From IMG/VR virus record IMGVR_UViG_3300032050_000088: DNA of 20,000 bases; one strand, written 5' to 3'. Below the pieces are notes generated by a model. The model had not been told where the DNA came from and made no database searches. It worked only from the letters and a program-made list of their open reading frames with translations. This stretch comes from an uncultured virus (IMG/VR IMGVR_UViG_3300032050_000088) (taxonomy: Duplodnaviria > Heunggongvirae > Uroviricota > Caudoviricetes). Shown here piece after piece: positions 4,382-20,000 of this stretch. Position 1 is the stretch's first letter. Each line of letters starts with the position of its first letter. The translations under genes were made by a program, and so were the position numbers.

Positions 4382-5392
4382 ATGGATAATAAGAGAAAAA
4401 TCGGAGAAGAAGAATTAAAAAGAGCTCTTCTCATGATGAAATACGACAGTAAAAAAACATTAACCGAAAATGTACAAGAAGTTGGAAAACCACAAATTTT
4501 AAATGAATGGGGGTTTTTATTACCGGCTTTAGGAAGATTAGGGGCTTCACTATTAGGAAAAAAAGCCGCCACTACGGCAGCTGGCACTGCGGTAAAACGA
4601 GGTTTAGGAGCTAGAGCCGCAGGTTTTGCAATAGATACCGCAGCATTTACATTACTCACATCTTGGATTAGTTCACTAATGGGAGGTGGAGACGCGGAAC
4701 AAAAACTCAAAATGTTTTTTGAAGGTTGCCCAACTCACATGGGAAAAATACAAGGTACCAATAGTCAAGAAGAAATAAGAAAGGCTGCCGATACAATTTG
4801 GGAAAATTCTGAAGGTGAGGATTGGTACGAAGGATTCGGTTCTGGAAATGAAGAAAACATTAAAAAGGCCATTAAATCTATGAATACTATTTCCGATATT
4901 TGCGCATTAAGTGGTGTGTTTTATGATGTATATGGAACTACTTTAGAGGATGCACTTACGGGTGAGGCTACGGGGTCTGACTTGGTTTCATACGTATGGG
5001 TTCCTATAAATGATAAAGTTAAAGAATCCGATTCTCAATTATCGGAATTACAACAACAAAATGCACAAGATGGTGCAACAGGTGAAACCCAAGATGGAGG
5101 AACAGGTGAAGCTCAAAATGCGCCTGCAATAGGTAGTTATACACCATGTAGTGGTACTTACACAAGAGGATGTTATTCTGAGGCAATTAAAGAGGTTCAA
5201 ACATGTTTAGGAGGTTTAGTTCCTGATGGTAAATTTGGGCCTAAAACACAGGCGGCGTTAGACGGAGTTGGTTTTGGTAGTGGATTTAAGGATTCTGATG
5301 TTTCCAAAATTTGTAACGTATCATCAATGCCTGAACCTGATATGGATTTACCGACACCTGATGAAGATGACATTGATTCATTGAATATTTAA
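4382..5392 (+). CDS. probable virion protein with C-terminal peptidoglycan-binding (PG_binding_1-like) domain
   Basis: IKEVQTCLGGLVPDGKFGPKTQAAL motif; Ala/Gly-rich hydrophobic segment after ILNE; TATTTAT at 4361-4367. Confidence 0.7.
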   Translation: MDNKRKIGEEELKRALLMMKYDSKKTLTENVQEVGKPQILNEWGFLLPALGRLGASLLGKKAATTAAGTAVKRGLGARAAGFAIDTAAFTLLTSWISSLMGGGDAEQKLKMFFEGCPTHMGKIQGTNSQEEIRKAADTIWENSEGEDWYEGFGSGNEENIKKAIKSMNTISDICALSGVFYDVYGTTLEDALTGEATGSDLVSYVWVPINDKVKESDSQLSELQQQNAQDGATGETQDGGTGEAQNAPAIGSYTPCSGTYTRGCYSEAIKEVQTCLGGLVPDGKFGPKTQAALDGVGFGSGFKDSDVSKICNVSSMPEPDMDLPTPDEDDIDSLNI

Positions 5393-5405
5393 AAAATTTA
5401 ACCGA

Positions 5406-7088
5406 ATGAAAAAAAGAAATATTATAACGGAACAATCCGCTGTCATGGATGACAGAACAAAACTAAAAACCGCTGCCGAAAATGGATGCTATCCTAAATG
5501 GTTAAAAAATGGAAGATTAGGTAACTATAAAGGTAAAAAAGTTTGGTATGGCACAAACGATAAAGGAAATACCGTTATCTTCTATGCGGATATGACCGCA
5601 GAAGTTAAGTTCAAAGATACAGATAAACCTTCTAAAACTGGAAAATGGAAATGTCAGGCATTAGAACAAACAGTTGGTGTGGAAACTCCAATGGAACAAT
5701 TCACTCCTGACCAACAAAAATACATTGAAGATTTGGTTAAATATGAAGGTGTTGTTAGAGAAAAACCATCTGACTATGAAACAAATCAAGGAAAATATGA
5801 GGTCATAGATTTAAATTCCAAAAACCCAACTTTATTCCCTAAAGTCGGAGTTGCGATGGTTTATAAACAAAAGGGCGAAATTAATATTGATAAACCACAA
5901 CAAGACCAAATAATTCAATCTTACAAAGATAGAGGGTATCAAATTGAAAGACCACCAGCAACTGAAAGTTTATTTTGGAACTCAATTGAATTAAGAACCG
6001 CTGAAGATGGTAAATACTCAGAATATTTTTCAAAACCATTTTTCATGTATCAGAGAGTCCAAGATACAAAACTTGCGGACGAAGACGTTAAGCAAGTTGA
6101 AATTGATAGTCAAAGTCAAGATGTTGAAAAATCTTTATGTAGACAATATATTCAATCTTTATACACTCACATGTCCCAAAACAAAGCCATGGAAGACACT
6201 ATGAAGAATAACATGAAGATTTATGTTAGAAGATGTGCCGCTCAAGATAAAATTCCGATGTTTGCTAAGAGTAAATATGAGGAATTATATGGTTTGAACC
6301 CTTATAGAAATTCTTATAGTTTGAGATGTCCGGCAGGATACAAATTAAATGAATTAAAAGTTTGTATGCCGGTTAAGGGAAAAAATGAAAGCATCGAACA
6401 AAAAGAAGTTATTGATAGTTACGAGATTGATTTGAAAAAATCAATTAAAGAAGGACTTAAAAACTATAAAGGTCCAAAAAAAAAAGTTAACGAGAACGAA
6501 ACCAAAATAATTAAAAACAGAATTAAATTCATAACTGAGGACATAAATTTAGACTCAGTTGAGAACCAAAAAAAGGTGGGTTCAGAATTATTCGAGGAAG
6601 TTATGTACCTTCGTTCACAAGGTTTTAATTCTCCATTATTAAATGAAAGTTTATTTGACTTTTTAGGTGGAGTTTTAGGACACTCAACTGAAGGAGTAAG
6701 TCAGTTCTTTAAAGAGAAATTAGTAGATAAAGTTCTATCAATATTAGGGGTAAATCCTGATAGCTGGGTTGGAGGAGTGGTATCAACAACTATTGGTAAC
6801 TTAGCGTTAAGTGACATTCCTAAAGTATTTAGTGATTGTAGTTTTACAACAAAATTATTATCAAAATCAATCGCCGAAGAAGCCGTTAACCAAGTTAGAT
6901 TAGGTGTTGGAGTATCTGGAGGTTTCTATGATATTCTTTCAAATACTTTAGTTGATATGATTGAAAAAGGTGATTTCGCCCAATCAGTCGAAGAAAAATT
7001 AGCAGAATCAATTTGTCCTATGTTATCTGATGTTAGACAAAAATTTACTGATACAGAACAAGGTTTAAAGGACAAAGTTTTTTCTTAA
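5406..7088 (+). CDS. large hypothetical protein, probably virion-associated
   Basis: 560 aa; several I/L-x-E motifs (IITEQ, IKEG, FITED, LLNES); co-oriented with the previous gene. Confidence 0.75.
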   Translation: MKKRNIITEQSAVMDDRTKLKTAAENGCYPKWLKNGRLGNYKGKKVWYGTNDKGNTVIFYADMTAEVKFKDTDKPSKTGKWKCQALEQTVGVETPMEQFTPDQQKYIEDLVKYEGVVREKPSDYETNQGKYEVIDLNSKNPTLFPKVGVAMVYKQKGEINIDKPQQDQIIQSYKDRGYQIERPPATESLFWNSIELRTAEDGKYSEYFSKPFFMYQRVQDTKLADEDVKQVEIDSQSQDVEKSLCRQYIQSLYTHMSQNKAMEDTMKNNMKIYVRRCAAQDKIPMFAKSKYEELYGLNPYRNSYSLRCPAGYKLNELKVCMPVKGKNESIEQKEVIDSYEIDLKKSIKEGLKNYKGPKKKVNENETKIIKNRIKFITEDINLDSVENQKKVGSELFEEVMYLRSQGFNSPLLNESLFDFLGGVLGHSTEGVSQFFKEKLVDKVLSILGVNPDSWVGGVVSTTIGNLALSDIPKVFSDCSFTTKLLSKSIAEEAVNQVRLGVGVSGGFYDILSNTLVDMIEKGDFAQSVEEKLAESICPMLSDVRQKFTDTEQGLKDKVFS

Positions 7089-7185: not shown

Positions 7186-7677
7186 TTATATGAAGGATTT
7201 TCTAAATTCTTCCCATACAAACTCAACTTGAGGATTTACAACGTCTGAAAATATTGTCGGTTCATATGGTTTTTTGAGTAATTTCATTCCGGCTTCATCC
7301 GGTGTTTTATTGTCCTTTGTTCTGTTACATGAAGAACAACAAGTAACAAGATTTAACCAAGTATTTTGTCCACCTCGTGATTTAGGAATAACATGGTCAA
7401 CAGTTAAATTTCTTTTACTACCACAATAAACACATTGATAATCATCCCGCCTAAAAAGTCTATGACGATTAATTTTTAATTTGTGATATCTGAATTTAAC
7501 ATAATTGAAAAGGCGTATAATAAGAGGTCGAACAAATGACCTTAAACCTGCCATAATTGGCTGGTCGTGAGACTTTAATATCTCCGCCTTACCCTTATTA
7601 ACCAAATTAAAACCTTTAAAAACGGTTGTTACGTTAATGGGGGTGTAGTCCGAATTTAGTACTAATACCTTTTCCAT
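7186..7677 (-). CDS. HNH endonuclease, McrA/HNH_5-like
   Basis: VLVLN.DY.P N-terminus, RD.Y.CVYCG..LTVDHVIPKSRGG..TW.NLVTCC..CN..K. Confidence 0.9.
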   Translation of the reverse strand: MEKVLVLNSDYTPINVTTVFKGFNLVNKGKAEILKSHDQPIMAGLRSFVRPLIIRLFNYVKFRYHKLKINRHRLFRRDDYQCVYCGSKRNLTVDHVIPKSRGGQNTWLNLVTCCSSCNRTKDNKTPDEAGMKLLKKPYEPTIFSDVVNPQVEFVWEEFRKSFI

Positions 7678-7795: not shown

Positions 7796-8078
7796 GTCTC
7801 CGTAGCTCAGTAGGATAGAGCAACAGCCTCAAAGGGGGCGTCTGATTAGAAATAATCAGATGGAACTTCTCGAATTCGGTGAAACCTTCCGAGTAATGTC
7901 GATGGTAATACCGAGCCAAACCTCAGAAATGAGGAAGTGTGTAGAGACTAAGTGGGAAGCACCTAAACAAATTAAGTTGAAGGTGATGATATAGTCCAGA
8001 CCACAAACCGAAAGGGTAGTGAAAACTATAGTGGTATGTCTAAGCTGTGGGCCACAGGTTCGAATCCTGTCGGGGATA
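7796..8078 (+). tRNA. tRNA-Arg(UCU), split by a group I intron (exons 7796-7829 and 8039-8078); CCA not encoded
   Basis: Joined exons give acceptor GTCTCCG/CGGGGAT, D arm GCTC/GAGC, anticodon arm ACAGC-CT^TCT-AA-GCTGT, T arm ACAGG-TTCGAAT-CCTGT. Confidence 0.92.
7830..8038 (+). ncRNA. group I self-splicing intron (209 nt, no internal ORF) inserted after U33
   Basis: Exon ends in U pairing with IGS GGGGC; terminal G at 8038; P-like GAATTCGGTGAAAC, Q-like AATACCGAGC, P7 GACTA (7946-7950)/TAGTC (7992-7996), P8 CACCT/AGGTG, P9 with GAAA tetraloops. Confidence 0.9.
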
Positions 8079-14622: not shown

Positions 14623-14955
14623 ATGTCAGGAGGAGCATTTGACTACAAACAATGGCATATTGAACAAATTGCCGATGAGGTTGAGAAACTGATTGAGAAA
14701 AATGGTCGTGAAAAAACACGAGAGGAACTCAAAGAAGAAGGATGGCGTGTGGATGATTGGTATGAGAAATATCCCGAAGATTTATATCATTACAAATACC
14801 CTGATGAAGTAATCGAGAAATTCAAGGAGGGTATGAAAGCTCTGAGAGTTGCTGCGGTTTACGCTCAACGTATTGATTGGTTGGTATCAGGTGATGATGG
14901 TGAAGAAAGTTTTTTGGAAAGATTGAAAGAAGAATTAGGCCAGTTGGAAAAATAG
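14623..14955 (+). CDS. conserved phage hypothetical protein
   Basis: MSGGAFDY ... RIDWLVSGDDGEESF pattern. Confidence 0.7.
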   Translation: MSGGAFDYKQWHIEQIADEVEKLIEKNGREKTREELKEEGWRVDDWYEKYPEDLYHYKYPDEVIEKFKEGMKALRVAAVYAQRIDWLVSGDDGEESFLERLKEELGQLEK

Positions 14956-14956
14956 C

Positions 14957-14982
14957 CGTATATTTGTAGAAGTTCTTTGAAA
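14957..14982 (+). promoter_or_regulatory. promoter -7 element plus boxA-like GTTCTTTGAAA heading the ncRNA/tRNA array
   Basis: CGTATATTTGTAGAAGTTCTTTGAAA. Confidence 0.65.
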
Positions 14983-14992
14983 TCATTTAAAG

Positions 14993-15117
14993 GGTGGGGT
15001 GGCAGACGAAAGTTAGATATATCCAAGTCAAACGTAGCTACGGTGTTTTTAAAACACGATGGATAAACGACAAGTAGAGCTCTAAGGGAACAAGTCGCTA
15101 TTGTTCCTCCCCCACCG
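14993..15117 (+). ncRNA. structured RNA with acceptor-like terminal stem and T-arm-like hairpin
   Basis: GGTGGGG/CCCCACC, GGAACAA-GTCGCTA-TTGTTCC, TATCCA/TGGATA. Confidence 0.55.
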
Positions 15118-15127
15118 ACAACATTAT

Positions 15128-15261
15128 AGGTTGATTGGGGAATGATTATACCAATAGTTTGAGAGTGGATACCGACTGGTATAATCGGAGTTGGCAGGTA
15201 TTCACCTGAAGTAATGCCAATCGTAAAAGGGGTTGTCCACTCGACCATCTTCCCCTTACCT
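15128..15261 (+). ncRNA. structured RNA with putative kissing-loop pseudoknot
   Basis: GATTATACCA/TGGTATAATC stem; loop GAGTGGAT complementary to GTCCACTC (15235-15242); TTGGCA/TGCCAA; AAGGGG/CCCCTT. Confidence 0.6.
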
Positions 15262-15357
15262 AAAACACAGAGTGGCGCAGGTTGATGCTACCTTAGCGGG
15301 TATACTGATACAGAGTAAAAAGAGGTGGGGGAAACCACTCATTAACCCACCCAACAT

Positions 15358-15429
15358 GGTCGGTTCATCTAAGGGTTAGGATACAAGATTTTCATTCTTG
15401 TCATAGGGGTTCGAATCCCCTACCGACTA
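15358..15429 (+). tRNA. tRNA-Glu(UUC), CCA not encoded
   Basis: GGTCGGT/ACCGACT, CAAGA-TT-TTC-AT-TCTTG, AGGGG-TTCGAAT-CCCCT. Confidence 0.9.
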
Positions 15430-15444
15430 CAAAAAGTAATATTT

Positions 15445-15564
15445 ATGAAAAAGATGTTTATTAATACACATAGGGAAATAGAAAAAATACTTCACCCATT
15501 TGACCCGGTTGGATTTTACGTTCTAATACCTTTTATACTAATCCTATTGTATCTGTTTACATAA
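15445..15564 (+). CDS. small single-TM peptide (39 aa)
   Basis: MKKMFINTHREIEKILHPFDPVGFYVLIPFILILLYLFT fills the gap between two RNA genes. Confidence 0.4.
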   Translation: MKKMFINTHREIEKILHPFDPVGFYVLIPFILILLYLFT

Positions 15565-15569
15565 AAAAT

Positions 15570-15691
15570 AGTCAGGTGGCGGAATGGTAGACGCAGCTGT
15601 GATGATTTTGTTGGAAGGTGAATCTCCTTAAACTATTAGCAAGGTTAATCAACTCCCAATCATCGTACAGGTTCGAGTCCTGTCCTGACTT
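15570..15691 (+). ncRNA. tRNA-like RNA (Leu-type shell) lacking a canonical anticodon arm
   Basis: AGTCAGG/CCTGACT, TGGCGGAATGGTAGACGC D arm, ACAGG-TTCGAGT-CCTGT T arm; interior closed by GATGATT/AATCATC; 122 nt. Confidence 0.78.
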
Positions 15692-15694
15692 CGC

Positions 15695-15837
15695 GTTCCG
15701 AAACAAATACAACGGATAGTGTGCCCCACACGAAGATAAACGGAGTGATGTCCGTAGGAGGTTTGGTATCACAGTAAGGCTGTGTACGACTGTTGACTAG
15801 TCGGCCCAAGAAAAGGTAAGAGTTGGTGGTACCTTGT
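15695..15837 (+). ncRNA. putative multi-hairpin RNA between the tRNA-like RNA and tRNA-Ile
   Basis: Hairpins GTGTG/CACAC, ACGGA/TCCGT, CACAG/CTGTG, CGACT/AGTCG, AAGGTA/TACCTT; GC above background. Confidence 0.45.
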
Positions 15838-15847
15838 TAGTTAATAT

Positions 15848-15921
15848 AGTCGGATAGCTCAGGTGGTGAGAGCGGCACGCTTATACCGTGATGGTCGTGG
15901 GTTCAACTCCCACTCCGACTA
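15848..15921 (+). tRNA. tRNA-Ile(UAU), CCA not encoded
   Basis: AGTCGGA/TCCGACT, GCTC/GAGC, CACG-CT-TAT-AC-CGTG, GTGGG-TTCAACT-CCCAC. Confidence 0.88.
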
Positions 15922-15989
15922 CAACTGAAAAACTATAGTTCATATCTAACTCGCCATTTGTTTAAGATATTTACTATAAAACCTAACAA

Positions 15990-16490
15990 ATGAAACACGT
16001 ATTTTTTGTACTATGTACAATTTTAACCATTAATGCCTTTTCACAAACTTTTAAAGACCCTGTGTCTTTTAAGTCCGACTTATGGCTTGTTCAAACTTTT
16101 GAGGAAGGCACATTCGTTGCTCCTGATACTATCTCAATAACTTGGGATATTAAAAAAGTTAAACAGGGTAAACACGCCATTTATGTTGATATCTCTAAAA
16201 AGGGAACATTGATTGGAATTAAATACCCAAATAAACTTACATTAAGTTCAGAAGGGTTACCCAATAATGGATTTATGGTTGAGAAATGGTTTAGCCGTTA
16301 CTCAATGTATATCCAAAGTATGGTAAAGGATGAAGAAGGATATATTTGGACAGTTACCGTTGGTAAGGATGCGGTTTCTGATGATAATAAGGGATTGGAA
16401 AATGGTAGAATATATGTTGTCATACAAGACCCAAAACATATAAAACCAAGTTGGTATTTCACCATTAAGTCATTTGGAAGTAAAAAATAA
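15990..16490 (+). CDS. secreted hypothetical protein
   Basis: 166 aa, signal peptide ending AFSQ. Confidence 0.7.
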   Translation: MKHVFFVLCTILTINAFSQTFKDPVSFKSDLWLVQTFEEGTFVAPDTISITWDIKKVKQGKHAIYVDISKKGTLIGIKYPNKLTLSSEGLPNNGFMVEKWFSRYSMYIQSMVKDEEGYIWTVTVGKDAVSDDNKGLENGRIYVVIQDPKHIKPSWYFTIKSFGSKK

Positions 16491-16496
16491 TTATAA

Positions 16497-16567
16497 GGTC
16501 GGATGTCCGAGCGAATAGGTGAATGTTTGCAAAACATTTTAGGGTGGTTTAACTCCATCTCCGACCT
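16497..16567 (+). tRNA. tRNA-Cys(GCA), atypical D/T loops, CCA not encoded
   Basis: GGTCGGA/TCCGACC with U73, AATGT-TT-GCA-AA-ACATT, GGTGG-TTTAACT-CCATC. Confidence 0.82.
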
Positions 16568-16585
16568 CTTTTTTAAAATAATAAT

Positions 16586-16678
16586 ATGGAAAAGAAACCT
16601 TTTGTAGATAGCGGAAAATTGTTTATCACATCGATAATACTATTTATTATCATGATGATTATAATGTTTTTTCTTTGA
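16586..16678 (+). CDS. small single-TM peptide (30 aa)
   Basis: MEKKPFVDSGKLFITSIILFIIMMIIMFFL. Confidence 0.4.
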   Translation: MEKKPFVDSGKLFITSIILFIIMMIIMFFL

Positions 16679-16728
16679 TTTTTTAGATTAAATCATTTAT
16701 ATTTTGGGTAAACTCAATAACTAAAACT

Positions 16729-17730
16729 ATGAAAAATTTATTCCTAACTTTATTTACTTTATTATCGATTAATTTGTTTTCACAATGTGAGAATGACTCA
16801 ATTAACCCCTATTTTGTTAACTTCGAGCCTGAGGTTACAATTTCATGCGATGTTGACCTGAATGTTGTATTTCCTGTTGCTCTTGATGAGTGTGATGATA
16901 GTGTTGAGATTGCTTGGTATGAAGAAACTACAAATATTTATTGTGACAATTCATATGATTTGTTTAGAGTTTACAGAGCTTTTGATAATTTCGGTAATCA
17001 ATCTGTTGAGTCTCAGATAATTCACGTAGTCGATGAAACATCCCCATTATTTCAACCAACACCAACTAAAATTATAAGTTGTGATGAAGTACCGGTTTTT
17101 GACCAGCCCGTTGCAACCGATAATTGTGGTTTTATTGTAATAACTAATCAAGATATGGTTGATACTACGGATAGTTGTCAAATAACTTATACCAGACTAT
17201 GGACCGCTTATGACCAGTGTGGAAATACCTCATACTCATCTCAAACAATAATTTCAATTGATACAGTACCACCAGTCATTAATGGACCAATATATTTGGA
17301 AGTCAATGAAGGTAATAATATTGACACTTTATTTGTTACAGTTACTGATAATTGTTCATCATTTAATGTAACTTATGTTGACACTGAAGTATCCTCACAC
17401 AGTATTATAAGAGATTACACGGCGACTGATTATTGTGGAAATGAATCTACATTTGAGCAAATAATTCATATTAATCACGATGAAGAGGAAGAAGAAGGTG
17501 GTGGTGGAAACAACAGAGTCGCAATTTGTCACAATTTAGGCAACGGAGAATGGATTACAATTTATGTGGCACAACCTGCGGTCCAAGCTCACTTGAATCA
17601 CGGAGACTATCTTGGTCCTTGTACCGAAATGGTAATAGACTGGCAACAAATTCTCCCAAATAGCGATTTACAAATGAGAGTTATTAAGGGAAAAGATAAT
17701 AAGTACAAAAAATTTGTGAGAGTTAGATAA
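16729..17730 (+). CDS. secreted HYR-like repeat protein
   Basis: Signal peptide; three repeats with A/V.D.C ... R...A.D..GN.S; C-terminal VAICH...AHLNHGDYLGPC module. Confidence 0.75.
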   Translation: MKNLFLTLFTLLSINLFSQCENDSINPYFVNFEPEVTISCDVDLNVVFPVALDECDDSVEIAWYEETTNIYCDNSYDLFRVYRAFDNFGNQSVESQIIHVVDETSPLFQPTPTKIISCDEVPVFDQPVATDNCGFIVITNQDMVDTTDSCQITYTRLWTAYDQCGNTSYSSQTIISIDTVPPVINGPIYLEVNEGNNIDTLFVTVTDNCSSFNVTYVDTEVSSHSIIRDYTATDYCGNESTFEQIIHINHDEEEEEGGGGNNRVAICHNLGNGEWITIYVAQPAVQAHLNHGDYLGPCTEMVIDWQQILPNSDLQMRVIKGKDNKYKKFVRVR

Positions 17731-17748
17731 ATCACTTATCTTTGTACC

Positions 17749-18201
17749 ATGAAAAGGATTTATTTGGATGATGTTCGTACACCTCTATCTAATGACTGGA
17801 TTGTCGTTAGAAGTTATGATGAATTTGTTAATAAAGTAACCGAGATTGGACTTGGTGAAATTGAAACTATTTCATTTGACCACGATTTGGGTGACACCGC
17901 CATGAATGAATATTTCACAAATGTTTCACCAAATTACAAATTGGATTATAATAATATAACCGAAAAAACAGGTTATGATTGTACCAAATGGATTGTTGAT
18001 TATTTTTATGAAATGAATCCTGATAGGATTGAAATGAGTCGCTCAAAAAAAGGAAATACCAAAATTAAATTTCCTTTGGTCGTAGTTCACTCGGCAAATC
18101 CAATTGGTTCGGCGAATATTATGGGATATATTAATAATTTTTTGATGAATGAAAATAAACCTCAAACTTGTATTAGGGTTAATATTGACCACACGGTTTA
18201 A
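17749..18201 (+). CDS. cyclic-phosphate processing receiver-domain protein
   Basis: IYLDDVR, VRSYDEF, ISFDHDLG, TGYD, VHSANPIG motifs. Confidence 0.78.
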   Translation: MKRIYLDDVRTPLSNDWIVVRSYDEFVNKVTEIGLGEIETISFDHDLGDTAMNEYFTNVSPNYKLDYNNITEKTGYDCTKWIVDYFYEMNPDRIEMSRSKKGNTKIKFPLVVVHSANPIGSANIMGYINNFLMNENKPQTCIRVNIDHTV

Positions 18202-18221
18202 TTAAACATTCGTATATTTGT

Positions 18222-18254
18222 AAAAAGTATGACTCTATGTCATACTTTTTTTTT
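18222..18254 (+). terminator. intrinsic terminator
   Basis: AAAAAGTATGAC-TCTAT-GTCATACTTTTT plus T-run. Confidence 0.75.
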
Positions 18255-18300
18255 GTTTTTGATATTTATCTTAATATAATAACTGACTTAATAAAAACTG

Positions 18301-18636
18301 ATGATGGAGCAACACTTGGTTACAATTCTCGTTACACTAATAACGGTTTTAACTTCAAACGCGGCTTGGAAATATTATGAGAAAAGAATGTTGTTGAAGC
18401 AAAGGCAAGAAGAGAATCAACACAAAGATGGGGAACTTTATAGAGATGATTTAAGAGAAAGAATTGTTAAATTAGAAACATTACTTGACGAATCATCCAA
18501 AGAAAAAGATAAGATGAGAGAAAACATCATCGTATTAACCACTTCACTCTCAAGATTAGAAGTCGAGGTGGATTTCTTAAGAAAAGAAAATGAAAAGTTG
18601 AGAGCAGAAAATCAACTTTTAAGAACTAGAGTATAA
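18301..18636 (+). CDS. N-terminal TM plus coiled-coil protein (possible lysis accessory)
   Basis: Hydrophobic residues 6-23, then heptad-rich tail; TAATG coupling to the M23 gene; TATTTAT at 18263-18269. Confidence 0.7.
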   Translation: MMEQHLVTILVTLITVLTSNAAWKYYEKRMLLKQRQEENQHKDGELYRDDLRERIVKLETLLDESSKEKDKMRENIIVLTTSLSRLEVEVDFLRKENEKLRAENQLLRTRV

Positions 18637-19352
18637 TGACAAATTTTTCTTACATAACAAATACCTCTAAAGGTAGAATAACATCCCCTTTTGGTAATAG
18701 GGTACATCCTACATTAGGTAAGGTCAAAAAACATTCAGGATTAGATATTGCTCACCCCACAGGAACTGAAGTACTAGCAATGACCGACGGAGTTGTCATT
18801 CAAAGTGAAATGGCAAATAACGCTTGCGGTGGTACCATTGCAATAGACCACGGAATGGTTGATGGAAAAAAGCTTAAAACCAGATTTTGTCATAATAGTA
18901 AATTACTTAAAAAAGTAGGGGATAATGTTAAAAAGGGTGAGGTAATTGCGATTTCTGGAGGTGGTAAAAATGATGTTGGTAGAGGTCGTTCGACAGGCCC
19001 CCATATTCATTTTGAGGTATATGAAAACGGACAAACAGTAAATCCAAAACCATATTATGATGGCTCAAAATTAGGAGTGACACCCGATAGTGAAAATACG
19101 ACTGATTCAGATACTACTAAAGTTTCAGGTAAAGAAGATTTACCGACACCTGATGAGGATGACGAACAACAAATGAGTCCTGAGTTATCTAATGCTCTAA
19201 AAACTTTAACTCCGGACTCTAAAGGTCTTGATGTGTTTGGTGGAAAATTGGACCCTTTAATGAAAGGGTTTGAAAAGGCGTTTGGTCAATTTGGTATGAA
19301 TTCTATCGTTAAAGAAGATGTTGATAGAATTAAAAATTTGATGAATCTGTAA
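18636..19352 (+). CDS. M23 family metallopeptidase (peptidoglycan hydrolase)
   Basis: ITSPFG.R.HP, HSGLD (HxxxD), STGPHIHFEV (HxH). Confidence 0.92.
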   Translation: MTNFSYITNTSKGRITSPFGNRVHPTLGKVKKHSGLDIAHPTGTEVLAMTDGVVIQSEMANNACGGTIAIDHGMVDGKKLKTRFCHNSKLLKKVGDNVKKGEVIAISGGGKNDVGRGRSTGPHIHFEVYENGQTVNPKPYYDGSKLGVTPDSENTTDSDTTKVSGKEDLPTPDEDDEQQMSPELSNALKTLTPDSKGLDVFGGKLDPLMKGFEKAFGQFGMNSIVKEDVDRIKNLMNL

Positions 19353-19368
19353 TTTTTTTACGATTTTG

Positions 19369-19636
19369 CTTGTTTGGTGAGTATTTATCCTTATCTTTGT
19401 AAAAGATTTGACACCTACAGGTGATGAAAGATACTCGGAAAGTTAAATCTAAAAAAAAACTACAAATAAATTTGGTGAAATGAAAAAGTCACCATATATT
19501 TGTAAAGGATTTGAGACGGACAACGATTAAGATACAAGTCTCGAATCTTAAAAAAAGTTTAAGAAAAATTGGAAGATTGAAAAATTTGACTTAAATTTGT
19601 AAAACAATTCGGGAATGACCGAAAAGTTCTTTGAAA
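19369..19636 (+). promoter_or_regulatory. three tandem Bacteroidota-type promoters followed by boxB-like hairpin and boxA-like motif
   Basis: TAnnTTTG at 19392, 19495 and 19592; TTCGG/CCGAA hairpin 19608-19623; GTTCTTTGAAA 19626-19636. Confidence 0.65.
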
Positions 19637-19639
19637 GAT

Positions 19640-20000
19640 TTTGGGCCGTGTATGGTCCTTTAAAATAAACTACGAAAGTAGGATAAAGTGGTCTCCCCCG
19701 TGTTAAGGAGACTGCGGCTTCAGAAATGGAGCTCGAGTACACAAGTGGGATATCACAAGACCTTTAGTACCGAGGGTAACACTGTAGGGAAAGTGGAATT
19801 GTGACCTGGGAATGTGGATTCTCAAGTTGAGTTCGGAAGAACAATAAGAATAACCCATAGGAATCAAGTAAGAAATGTGGCTTCCAACTACAATATTGCG
19901 GATTCCAATACCGAAGGGGACTTAAAACCGAAAGGTAAGGTGGAGAACGAGTGGTGTCGCTACTACCCCTAAAGATGACCTACCAAGGTCTCTTTATGAA
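19640..20000 (+). ncRNA. large structured non-coding RNA, truncated by the window end (GOLLD/ROOL-class candidate)
   Basis: No plus-strand ORF in the track; raised GC; CTAC-GAAA-GTAG, GTTC-GGAA-GAAC, ACC-GAAA-GGT, GTCTCC/GGAGAC, GGAATC/GATTCC, GACCT/AGGTC hairpins. Confidence 0.7.

What the first reader, a model, noticed from the sequence alone, without database searches (positions are those of the whole stretch)
19640..20000. Start of a large ornate non-coding RNA
Seen: over 360 nt with no credible ORF, dense in short stems with GNRA loops (GAAA twice, GGAA), longer-range GGAATC/GATTCC pairing and A-rich joiners, running off the window. Established: GOLLD and ROOL are 0.5-0.9 kb phage-associated RNAs, often near tRNAs, that form multimeric cages. 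Inference: a member of that class or a new one; I cannot assign the family by eye.
Basis: partly seen in the sequence, partly recalled or inferred. Interest (0 to 1): 0.72.

Follow-up and report, generated by a model that had tools for sequence, protein, structure and literature searches.

The report
Front half of GOLLD cage RNA

Summary
Window 19643-20000 is the 5' domain of a GOLLD RNA. The window ends at its contig's end. Three longer viral contigs match it with 0 mismatches over 5365 nt, and on one of them (L001) Rfam's GOLLD model, which covers only the 3' half, hits 34 nt past the window (298 bits, cut-off 150). All 124 of 124 locus rows (redundant) with its 19-nt motif and enough downstream DNA carry the 3' domain. 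In 41 homologues, 78 of 117 pairs show compensatory changes. By eye it is colinear with env-38 GOLLD, the cryo-EM 14-mer, and keeps counterparts of its 5' bridges. Three Bacteroidota-type promoter motifs precede it. Cage formation is inferred; biological function is open, with a tRNA/translation role my best guess. One side result: the RNA is a mosaic whose last 273 nt match a rare allele linked to an adjacent HNH endonuclease gene, which suggests homing-driven domain swapping. The scan has reported env-38-type GOLLD before in two other genomes. New member of a known kind; low interest.

The parts
19643..20000 (+). 5' domain of a GOLLD RNA (env-38 type). It continues past the contig end; in L001 the whole RNA is 5008-5792 (785 nt) and the Rfam-matched 3' domain is 5399-5792, which would be window 20034-20427
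   Evidence: env-38 comparison by eye
19643..19658 (+). First hairpin (19643-19646 with 19655-19658); its loop 19648-19653 pairs with 19737-19742 as a pseudoknot
   Evidence: helices 1 and 2: 2 of 4 and 3 of 6 pairs with changes on both sides
19670..19681 (+). GAAA-capped hairpin, counterpart of env-38 G33-A36 whose A34/A35 form inter-subunit bridge B1 to the 3' domain
   Evidence: 19663-19691 equals env-38 22-50 at 29 of 29 nt (by eye). Invariant in alignment A1 by construction, since it was the search motif
19772..19783 (+). Stem-loop, counterpart of env-38 138-149 (bridge B2, inner ring of the cap)
   Evidence: 12 of 12 nt identical by eye; helix 10
19831..19842 (+). GGAA-capped hairpin, counterpart of env-38 G201-A204 (bridge B3 donor); the receptor counterparts are 19921-19923 and 19998-20001
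   Evidence: 19825-19860 equals env-38 191-226 at 34 of 36 nt by eye; stem covaries at 4 of 4 pairs (helix 12); loop and receptor bases invariant in 41 rows
19860..19906 (+). GGAATC/GATTCC helix enclosing two further stems; loop bases 19883-19885 are predicted to pair with a loop just past the window (L001 5389-5391), a shortened counterpart of kissing-loop bridge B4
   Evidence: helices 13-16; the kiss is 3 bp, 97.6% paired, only 1 row with a change on both sides
19927..19936 (+). GAAA-capped hairpin, likely counterpart of env-38 L11a, the loop that points into the inner circle
   Evidence: helix 19; text; name mapping inferred
19952..19985 (+). Loops 19952-19955 and 19982-19985, complementary, counterpart of kissing-loop bridge B5 (env-38 340-342 with 369-372)
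   Evidence: 100% paired in 41 rows but nearly invariant, so no covariation support (helix 22); env-38 numbering
19392..19599 (+). Three tandem promoter-like TAnnTTTG elements (19392, 19495, 19592), the first two followed by hairpins (19404-19450, 19506-19549); likely drive the RNA
   Evidence: the motif lies within 200 nt upstream in 38 of 41 homologues against a shuffle mean of 4.2 and 4 on the opposite strand. That it is the Bacteroidota -7 promoter element is recalled, not from a call
18636..19352 (+). Upstream neighbour: M23 peptidase gene, used to find the longer contigs; not part of the RNA
   Evidence: Pfam PF01551, E 4.8e-25

Best explanation
The stretch is the 5' half of a roughly 790-nt GOLLD non-coding RNA of a large phage that likely infects Bacteroidota, and it is predicted to form the cap of a hollow cage of about 12-14 RNA copies that likely serves the phage's tRNA and translation supply during infection. 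Shown: identity as GOLLD, extent, conserved covarying fold, colinearity with env-38. Inferred, about 0.8: host RNA polymerase transcribes it from the tandem promoters, often in one unit with a downstream tRNA-Met; each copy folds into a 5' cap domain and a 3' ring domain, and copies join through the tetraloop-receptor and kissing-loop contacts seen in env-38 (B1-B5 have counterparts here). Inferred, about 0.35: the cage shelters or stages tRNAs or other translation components, chosen because of the tRNA-Met and tmRNA neighbourhood and the reported ribosome pull-down; nothing here tests it. The confidence score refers to identity plus cage architecture.
For: Extension: L001, L002, L004 match window 14636-20000 with 0 mismatches and, with L003, agree over all 3349 nt beyond it. 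Rfam GOLLD RF02032 hits L001 5399-5792 at 298 bits over the full model (cut-off 150). The only 2 phage records that blastn found for the window stretch itself (70-73% identity, 635-642 kb genomes) both carry GOLLD right downstream. 124 of 124 locus rows with the 19-nt motif and at least 900 nt downstream have the 3' domain, 123 at 361-399 nt from the motif (rows are redundant; own profile seeded from Rfam hits); Rfam itself confirmed 12 of 12 such loci given to it. Covariation: 78 of 117 pairs change on both sides, 97.2% of cells paired, covariation score 0.50 against 0.19 in shuffles (0 of 500) and at most 0.105 for slid partners. env-38 blocks of 29/29, 12/12 and 34/36 nt in the same order (by eye). 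env-38 forms a D7 14-mer whose 5' region is the cap (PMC12286853 section 7). tRNA within 40 nt downstream in 17 of 75 unique full-length homologues, 16 of them Met. Contigs of RNA libraries from 4 of 4 studies laid cover parts of the RNA; in two of them pieces with 0-1 differences tile most of it and span the 5'/3' junction.
Against: The GOLLD model matches only outside the window, so membership rests on contigs identical to it and on homologues. The env-38 comparison is by eye, not a computed alignment, and the paper's figures and alignment files were not seen. Kissing loops B4 and B5 are nearly invariant, so covariation hardly tests them, and B4 is shorter here (3 bp against 6-7 in env-38), which could change the copy number; related GOLLD RNAs form 10-, 12- and 14-mers (PMC12990946). 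All homologues were picked by an exact motif, 17 pairs were added by hand after looking at pairing fractions, and relatedness inflates the shuffle control. 55 of 75 homologues have no tRNA called close by, none has a tRNA inside the linker, and in this allele an endonuclease cassette separates the RNA from the tRNA: all weak against the tRNA-storage step. The RNA data are contigs only and do not show strand, ends or level.
Confidence: 0.9

Rival explanations
1. A new class of large structured RNA, or a novel 5' domain fused to a GOLLD core.
For: No Rfam family matches the 361 nt at gathering score or with E below 2; GOLLD 5' domains are described as variable.
Against: The Rfam model spans only the 3' part (416 positions). 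The stretch is colinear with the 5' region of env-38, down to the bridge residues (by eye), and all 142 locus rows with a 3' domain hit also had a hit to this 5' profile.
Confidence: 0.02
2. GOLLD RNA that folds and assembles as above but whose job is unrelated to tRNA: a decoy or sponge for host anti-phage RNA sensors or nucleases, or a scaffold for proteins or metabolites.
For: Most homologues have no tRNA called nearby (55 of 75) and none inside; the cage was empty in cryo-EM and the authors list several possible cargoes; tandem promoters suggest high output.
Against: No partner gene is conserved beside it in the loci inspected, apart from tRNA-Met and tmRNA; no test here favours it. It is a rival to the function step only.
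Confidence: 0.35
3. A self-splicing intron, RNase P RNA, tmRNA, ROOL, OLE, HEARO or OTKONC RNA.
For: A weak OTKONC match over 19582-19711 (18 bits, E 4.4, cut-off 141); an HNH-type gene lies next to the 3' end as in HEARO loci; the same window has a real group I intron.
Against: None of these models hits the RNA in the window or in L001 at E up to 1, while the same scans do find the real group I intron and the real tmRNA nearby. The HNH gene is on the opposite strand, outside the RNA, and present in only 2 of 74 homologues.
Confidence: 0.005

Closest known systems
GOLLD env-38 (marine metagenome; 833 nt; cryo-EM D7 14-mer, PDB 9MEE; Kretsch et al. 2025, PMC12286853)
   Same: Same order of conserved 5' blocks (29/29, 12/12, 34/36 nt by eye), counterparts of bridges B1-B5 and of the L11a GAAA loop, a 3' domain above the Rfam cut-off, phage setting with tRNA-Met nearby.
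   Different: Shorter (785 against 833 nt), with a shorter linker and a shorter B4 kissing loop (3 predicted bp); freshwater-type phage; tRNA-Met lies downstream, beyond an HNH cassette, not upstream. Copy number of the cage untested.
Rfam GOLLD RF02032
   Same: Full-length match of the 3' half at 298 bits.
   Different: The model does not cover the 5' half, which is all the window holds; hence no hit in the window.
Streptococcus agalactiae GOLLD (700 nt; 12-mer, 3' domain alone 10-mer; as reviewed in PMC12990946)
   Same: Same family and two-domain plan.
   Different: Per the review it lacks P9, P11a-c and P21b; this RNA has counterparts of the P11a-c hairpins (mapping inferred). Its sequence was not compared here.
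ROOL (Rfam family; 6-8-mer cages)
   Same: Large phage-associated cage-forming RNA near tRNAs.
   Different: Unrelated sequence and fold; no Rfam ROOL match.

Membership tests
GOLLD | Conserved 3' domain scoring above the Rfam RF02032 cut-off | tested here: met
   298 bits against 150, model 1-416, on L001, which is identical to the window over 5365 nt; it lies past the window's end
GOLLD | Length of about 700-850 nt | tested here: met
   785 nt in L001; 771-987, median 801, in 75 unique full-length homologues
GOLLD | Ornate 5' domain supported by covariation | tested here: met
   78 of 117 pairs in 25 helices with changes on both sides, 41 sequences
GOLLD (env-38 type) | 5' domain homologous to env-38 with the bridge-forming loops B1-B5 | tested here: met
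   By-eye comparison with the sequence and residue tables; no computed alignment; B4 shortened
GOLLD | Encoded by a phage or prophage, often near tRNA genes | tested here: met
   Identical to IMG/VR contigs up to 321 kb; 5 tRNAs in the window, tmRNA and a tRNA-Met-like gene downstream. No capsid or terminase among the 44 ORFs of at least 140 aa scanned from the first 54 kb of the contig
GOLLD | Transcribed as an abundant RNA during infection | tested here: inconclusive
   Present in contigs of RNA libraries; contigs show neither strand, ends nor level
GOLLD | Self-assembly into a multimeric nanocage | not testable with these tools
   Bridge residues conserved; needs mass photometry or cryo-EM
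ROOL / OLE / HEARO / RNase P / tmRNA / group I and II introns | Match to the family's Rfam model | tested here: not met
   No hit on the RNA at E up to 10 in window 19300-20000 or E up to 1 in L001
OTKONC | Match above the Rfam RF03053 cut-off (141 bits) | tested here: not met
   18 bits, E 4.4

The most novel reading that the evidence does not exclude
A free-standing homing endonuclease targets the GOLLD gene and swaps its 3' core between co-infecting phages, so that cage 'caps' and 'rings' are exchanged as modules. In L001 the first 514 nt differ from L007 at 10 positions and the last 273 nt at 84, with a sharp switch at L001 5519/5520, at the end of the flexible linker; the last 273 nt match L049 (1 difference) and L139 (6). 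Both lineages that carry the HNH gene beside the RNA (2 of 74) have this rare 3' allele, which only 3 of 75 have. That would make GOLLD a homing target and give natural chimeras to test which cap-ring contacts a cage needs. Ordinary linkage and recombination explain the same data, and L049 has the allele without the gene.
Probability: 0.3. Interest if true: 0.45.

Novelty: new member of a known kind. Interest (0 to 1): 0.2.

Why it matters
As a GOLLD member of an already solved structural type it adds little. Two practical points remain. Rfam's GOLLD model misses the 5' half, so contig-end fragments like this one look like unknown RNAs; a 5'-domain model removes that false novelty. And these freshwater phage populations hold many natural variants, including a cap/ring chimera beside an endonuclease gene and a shortened kissing loop, that could be used to test what sets cage size and whether the domains are exchangeable. 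GOLLD's biological function is still described as unknown in the papers read.

Tried and rejected
Rfam on the window alone: no family on the stretch; misleading, because the GOLLD model covers only the 3' half. The weak OTKONC match was followed with a 17-nt pattern (86 stretches, 80 listed): 53 had the GOLLD 3' domain, 16 ended within 341 nt, and 11 were unrelated sequence beyond the 17 nt (8 of the 11 given to Rfam, none GOLLD or OTKONC), so there is no sign of a separate family sharing this hairpin; a paper search for OTKONC found 0 papers. Single-sequence folding misses the pseudoknot and mispairs the middle; the alignment fold was used instead. The pile of loci ending 319 nt after the motif reflects the 300-nt default flank of unlisted loci, not contig breaks; not used. 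RNA contigs showed no cover on the M23 or HNH genes while covering GOLLD and tmRNA, but the runs were chosen by this RNA and gaps in contigs prove nothing, so no level or boundary is claimed; much of the depth comes from relatives. A second GOLLD copy in the own contig: none. More distant relatives of the HNH protein (7 of 12 loci, 36-51% identity) have no GOLLD within 1.5 kb, so the family as a whole is not GOLLD-linked. Host from genome collections: the motif occurs in only 2 short contigs of assembled Bacteroidota genomes, which may be mis-binned phage DNA. L003 matches the window over 19350-20000 but not further upstream in an ungapped comparison; not followed up. Paper searches for a GOLLD function or a GOLLD-homing endonuclease link listed no paper holding the word GOLLD; one search listed 25 of 29 GOLLD papers, of which three were opened, so absence from print is not established.

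Full report
Observation. The stretch 19640-20000 is as described. Only 52-64 aa frames overlap it, and 40 of 40 homologues carry a non-triplet indel against it. It is GC-richer than the window (44% against 33%), has 4 GNRA-capped stems where shuffles give 0.34 (0 of 1000 reach 4), and folds better than 100 of 100 shuffles on the + strand but not on the - strand. The window ends where its 73,412-nt contig ends. Rfam finds nothing on the stretch at gathering score and only chance-level matches at E up to 10.

Extending the contig. The upstream M23 peptidase found 12 viral loci, 4 of them at 100% protein identity. L001 (a 321-kb contig), L002 and L004 match window 14636-20000 with 0 mismatches; these and L003 agree over all 3349 nt beyond the window's end. 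Window position = L001 position + 14635. They may sample the same phage population as the window, so they extend it rather than replicate it. On L001 Rfam GOLLD (RF02032) hits 5399-5792 at 298 bits over the whole 416-position model, cut-off 150 (7 of the 12 loci were scanned and 5 had GOLLD, the other two being L008 and L009, where the window stretch has no match either). The hit begins 34 nt past the window's end. The whole RNA, from the first conserved helix to the model's end, is L001 5008-5792, 785 nt.

Linkage of this 5' part to GOLLD. Blastn of the window stretch against annotated phages found 2 records (70-73% identity); both have GOLLD directly downstream (275 and 287 bits). A 19-nt motif from the stretch was present in 199 locus rows; of the 124 with at least 900 nt downstream, 124 have the 3' domain, 123 of them at 361-399 nt. 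Conversely all 142 rows with a 3' hit also had a 5' hit, though these rows were collected through 5' motifs.

Structure. 133 5' halves gave 90 unique sequences (65-100% identical to L001), reduced to 41 at under 93% identity, dropping L102 for length (alignment A1). RNAalifold gave 99 pairs, 68 with compensatory change. I added 18 pairs by hand after inspecting pairing fractions and mutual information: the first hairpin, a 3' hairpin, two kissing interactions and two isolated pairs. On the 117 pairs, 97.2% of cells pair, 78 pairs change on both sides, and the covariation score is 0.50 against 0.19 for shuffles (0 of 500) and at most 0.105 for slid partners. Relatedness and my hand additions inflate these margins, but the top 15 column pairs by corrected mutual information include 14 that pair in at least 95% of rows, which does not depend on the drawn structure.

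Which GOLLD. Kretsch et al. 2025 (PMC12286853; I saw the abstract, sections 7, 8, 9 and 19, and part 2 of supplementary file 1; not the figures, the scanned file 2 or the alignment files) solved env-38 GOLLD as a 14-copy cage in which residues 1-420 form the cap. Comparing its printed sequence by eye, window 19663-19691 equals env-38 22-50 (29 of 29), 19772-19783 equals 138-149 (12 of 12) and 19825-19860 matches 191-226 at 34 of 36, in the same order. The residues that the paper lists for bridges B1 (A34, A35), B2 (G140-U150), B3 (A203, A204 onto U293, A387, G388) and B5 (340-342 with 369-372) have counterparts at 19675-19676, 19774-19784, 19837-19838 with 19922 and 20000-20001, and 19952-19955 with 19982-19985. 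B4 is shorter here: 3 predicted pairs (19883-19885 with L001 5389-5391). Loop names are mapped by inference. A review (PMC12990946, passages on GOLLD) says env-38 has the generally conserved GOLLD structure and that other members form 10- and 12-mers. So this is the common, solved type, not a new 5' domain.

Setting and expression. Three TAnnTTTG elements precede the RNA (19392, 19495, 19592); the motif lies within 200 nt upstream in 38 of 41 homologues against 4.2 in shuffles. I recall it as the Bacteroidota -7 promoter element; with a type IX secretion tail domain in the window and two motif matches in Bacteroidota genome bins, the host is likely of that phylum. The contig has phage-type metabolic genes but no capsid or terminase among the 44 ORFs of at least 140 aa scanned from its first 54 kb; phage identity rests on the identical IMG/VR contigs. 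Five tRNAs lie in the window and a tmRNA 1.6 kb downstream. 17 of 75 unique full-length homologues have a tRNA within 40 nt downstream, 16 of them Met; none has one inside. Of 24 runs listed, 20 hold part of the stretch, 18 on record as RNA. In the 4 laid, from 4 studies, contigs cover parts of the RNA; in X1 and X2 pieces with 0-1 differences tile L001 5127-5791 and 5308-5782 and span the 5'/3' junction. These are contigs, so they show presence in RNA libraries, not strand, ends or level.

How it most likely works. Shown: identity, extent, fold. Inferred (about 0.8): transcription from the tandem promoters, folding into a cap and a ring domain, and assembly into a 12-14-copy cage through the conserved contacts. 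Inferred (about 0.35): the cage shelters or stages tRNA or other translation parts during infection. The basis is the tRNA-Met and tmRNA neighbourhood and the ribosome pull-down that Kretsch et al. cite; against it, most homologues have no tRNA called beside them and none inside. A decoy or scaffold role is about as likely. The papers read describe the function as unknown; the original 2009 description was not read.

A side result. This allele is a mosaic. Against L007 it differs at 10 of the first 514 nt and 84 of the last 273; against L049 at 31 and 1; against L139 at 54 and 6. Trees of the two parts give different nearest neighbours (L007, support 1.0; L139 and L049, 0.998, 75 rows, unrooted, no formal test). 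A 235-aa endonuclease VII/HNH-like gene (PHROG 1035, E 2.7e-20) and a 51-aa possible ribbon-helix-helix gene (Pfam E 0.04) sit on the opposite strand between the RNA and a tRNA-Met-like gene, and beyond that the sequence returns to the L007 type. The gene occurs beside GOLLD in 2 of 74 homologues with at least 300 nt downstream, both with this 3' allele, which 3 of 75 have. A paper on large aquatic Bacteroidota phages describes similar antitoxin-like plus homing endonuclease modules (PMC12619734, passages); I did not test whether this phage belongs to that lineage. Homing with co-conversion fits; so does plain linkage, and L049 has the allele without the gene. Probability about 0.3.

Earlier notes. 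The scan's index held two earlier reports of env-38-type GOLLD in other genomes; they agree, came after my own identification, and are not counted as support.

Verdict. Observation confirmed, interpretation supported, family assigned: a new member of GOLLD of the solved env-38 type. Interest 0.2.

Noticed in passing
L001 5520-6780 (just past the window's end): The GOLLD 3' core is a different allele from that of the closest relative, followed by an HNH/endonuclease VII-like gene and a small possible ribbon-helix-helix gene on the - strand, then a tRNA-Met-like gene that ARAGORN does not call; flanks return to the L007 type. Possible homing with co-conversion.
   Followed up: partly
window 7797-8078: A tRNA-Arg(UCU) gene split by a group I intron in the anticodon loop, read by eye; Rfam finds the intron at 7820-8020 (75.6 bits). 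HNH-type gene next to it at 7186-7677 on the - strand.
   Followed up: partly
window 14980-15350 and 15693-15846: GC-richer gene-free stretches behind a TAnnTTTG element (14959) among the tRNAs, with visible stems; no Rfam match at E up to 1. Possibly further structured RNAs.
   Followed up: partly
window 15571-15692: tRNA-like sequence with normal D and T arms but a long insert in place of the anticodon arm; called by neither ARAGORN nor Rfam.
   Followed up: no
window 19392-19600: Three tandem promoter-like units, two followed by conserved hairpins that resemble each other (about 70% over 116 nt in relatives); relatives L005 and L010 have an extra hairpin between the last promoter and the RNA.
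   Followed up: partly
L001 6785-6905: A 120-nt non-coding stretch after the tRNA, conserved in L007, L227 and L048, with stem-loops by eye; no Rfam match at E up to 1.
   Followed up: no
L029 and L065: Two GOLLD copies about 88% identical (730 of 825 columns) on one 59-kb viral contig; real duplication or chimeric assembly not resolved.
   Followed up: partly
L102 and L059: Degenerate GOLLD copies: L102 has an A/T-rich insert of about 150 nt in the 5' domain, L059 an internal deletion joining the 5' domain to the middle of the 3' domain.
   Followed up: no
L001 7372-7749 (- strand): tmRNA gene 1.6 kb downstream of GOLLD, found by Rfam in 7 of 7 loci scanned but not called by ARAGORN.
   Followed up: no
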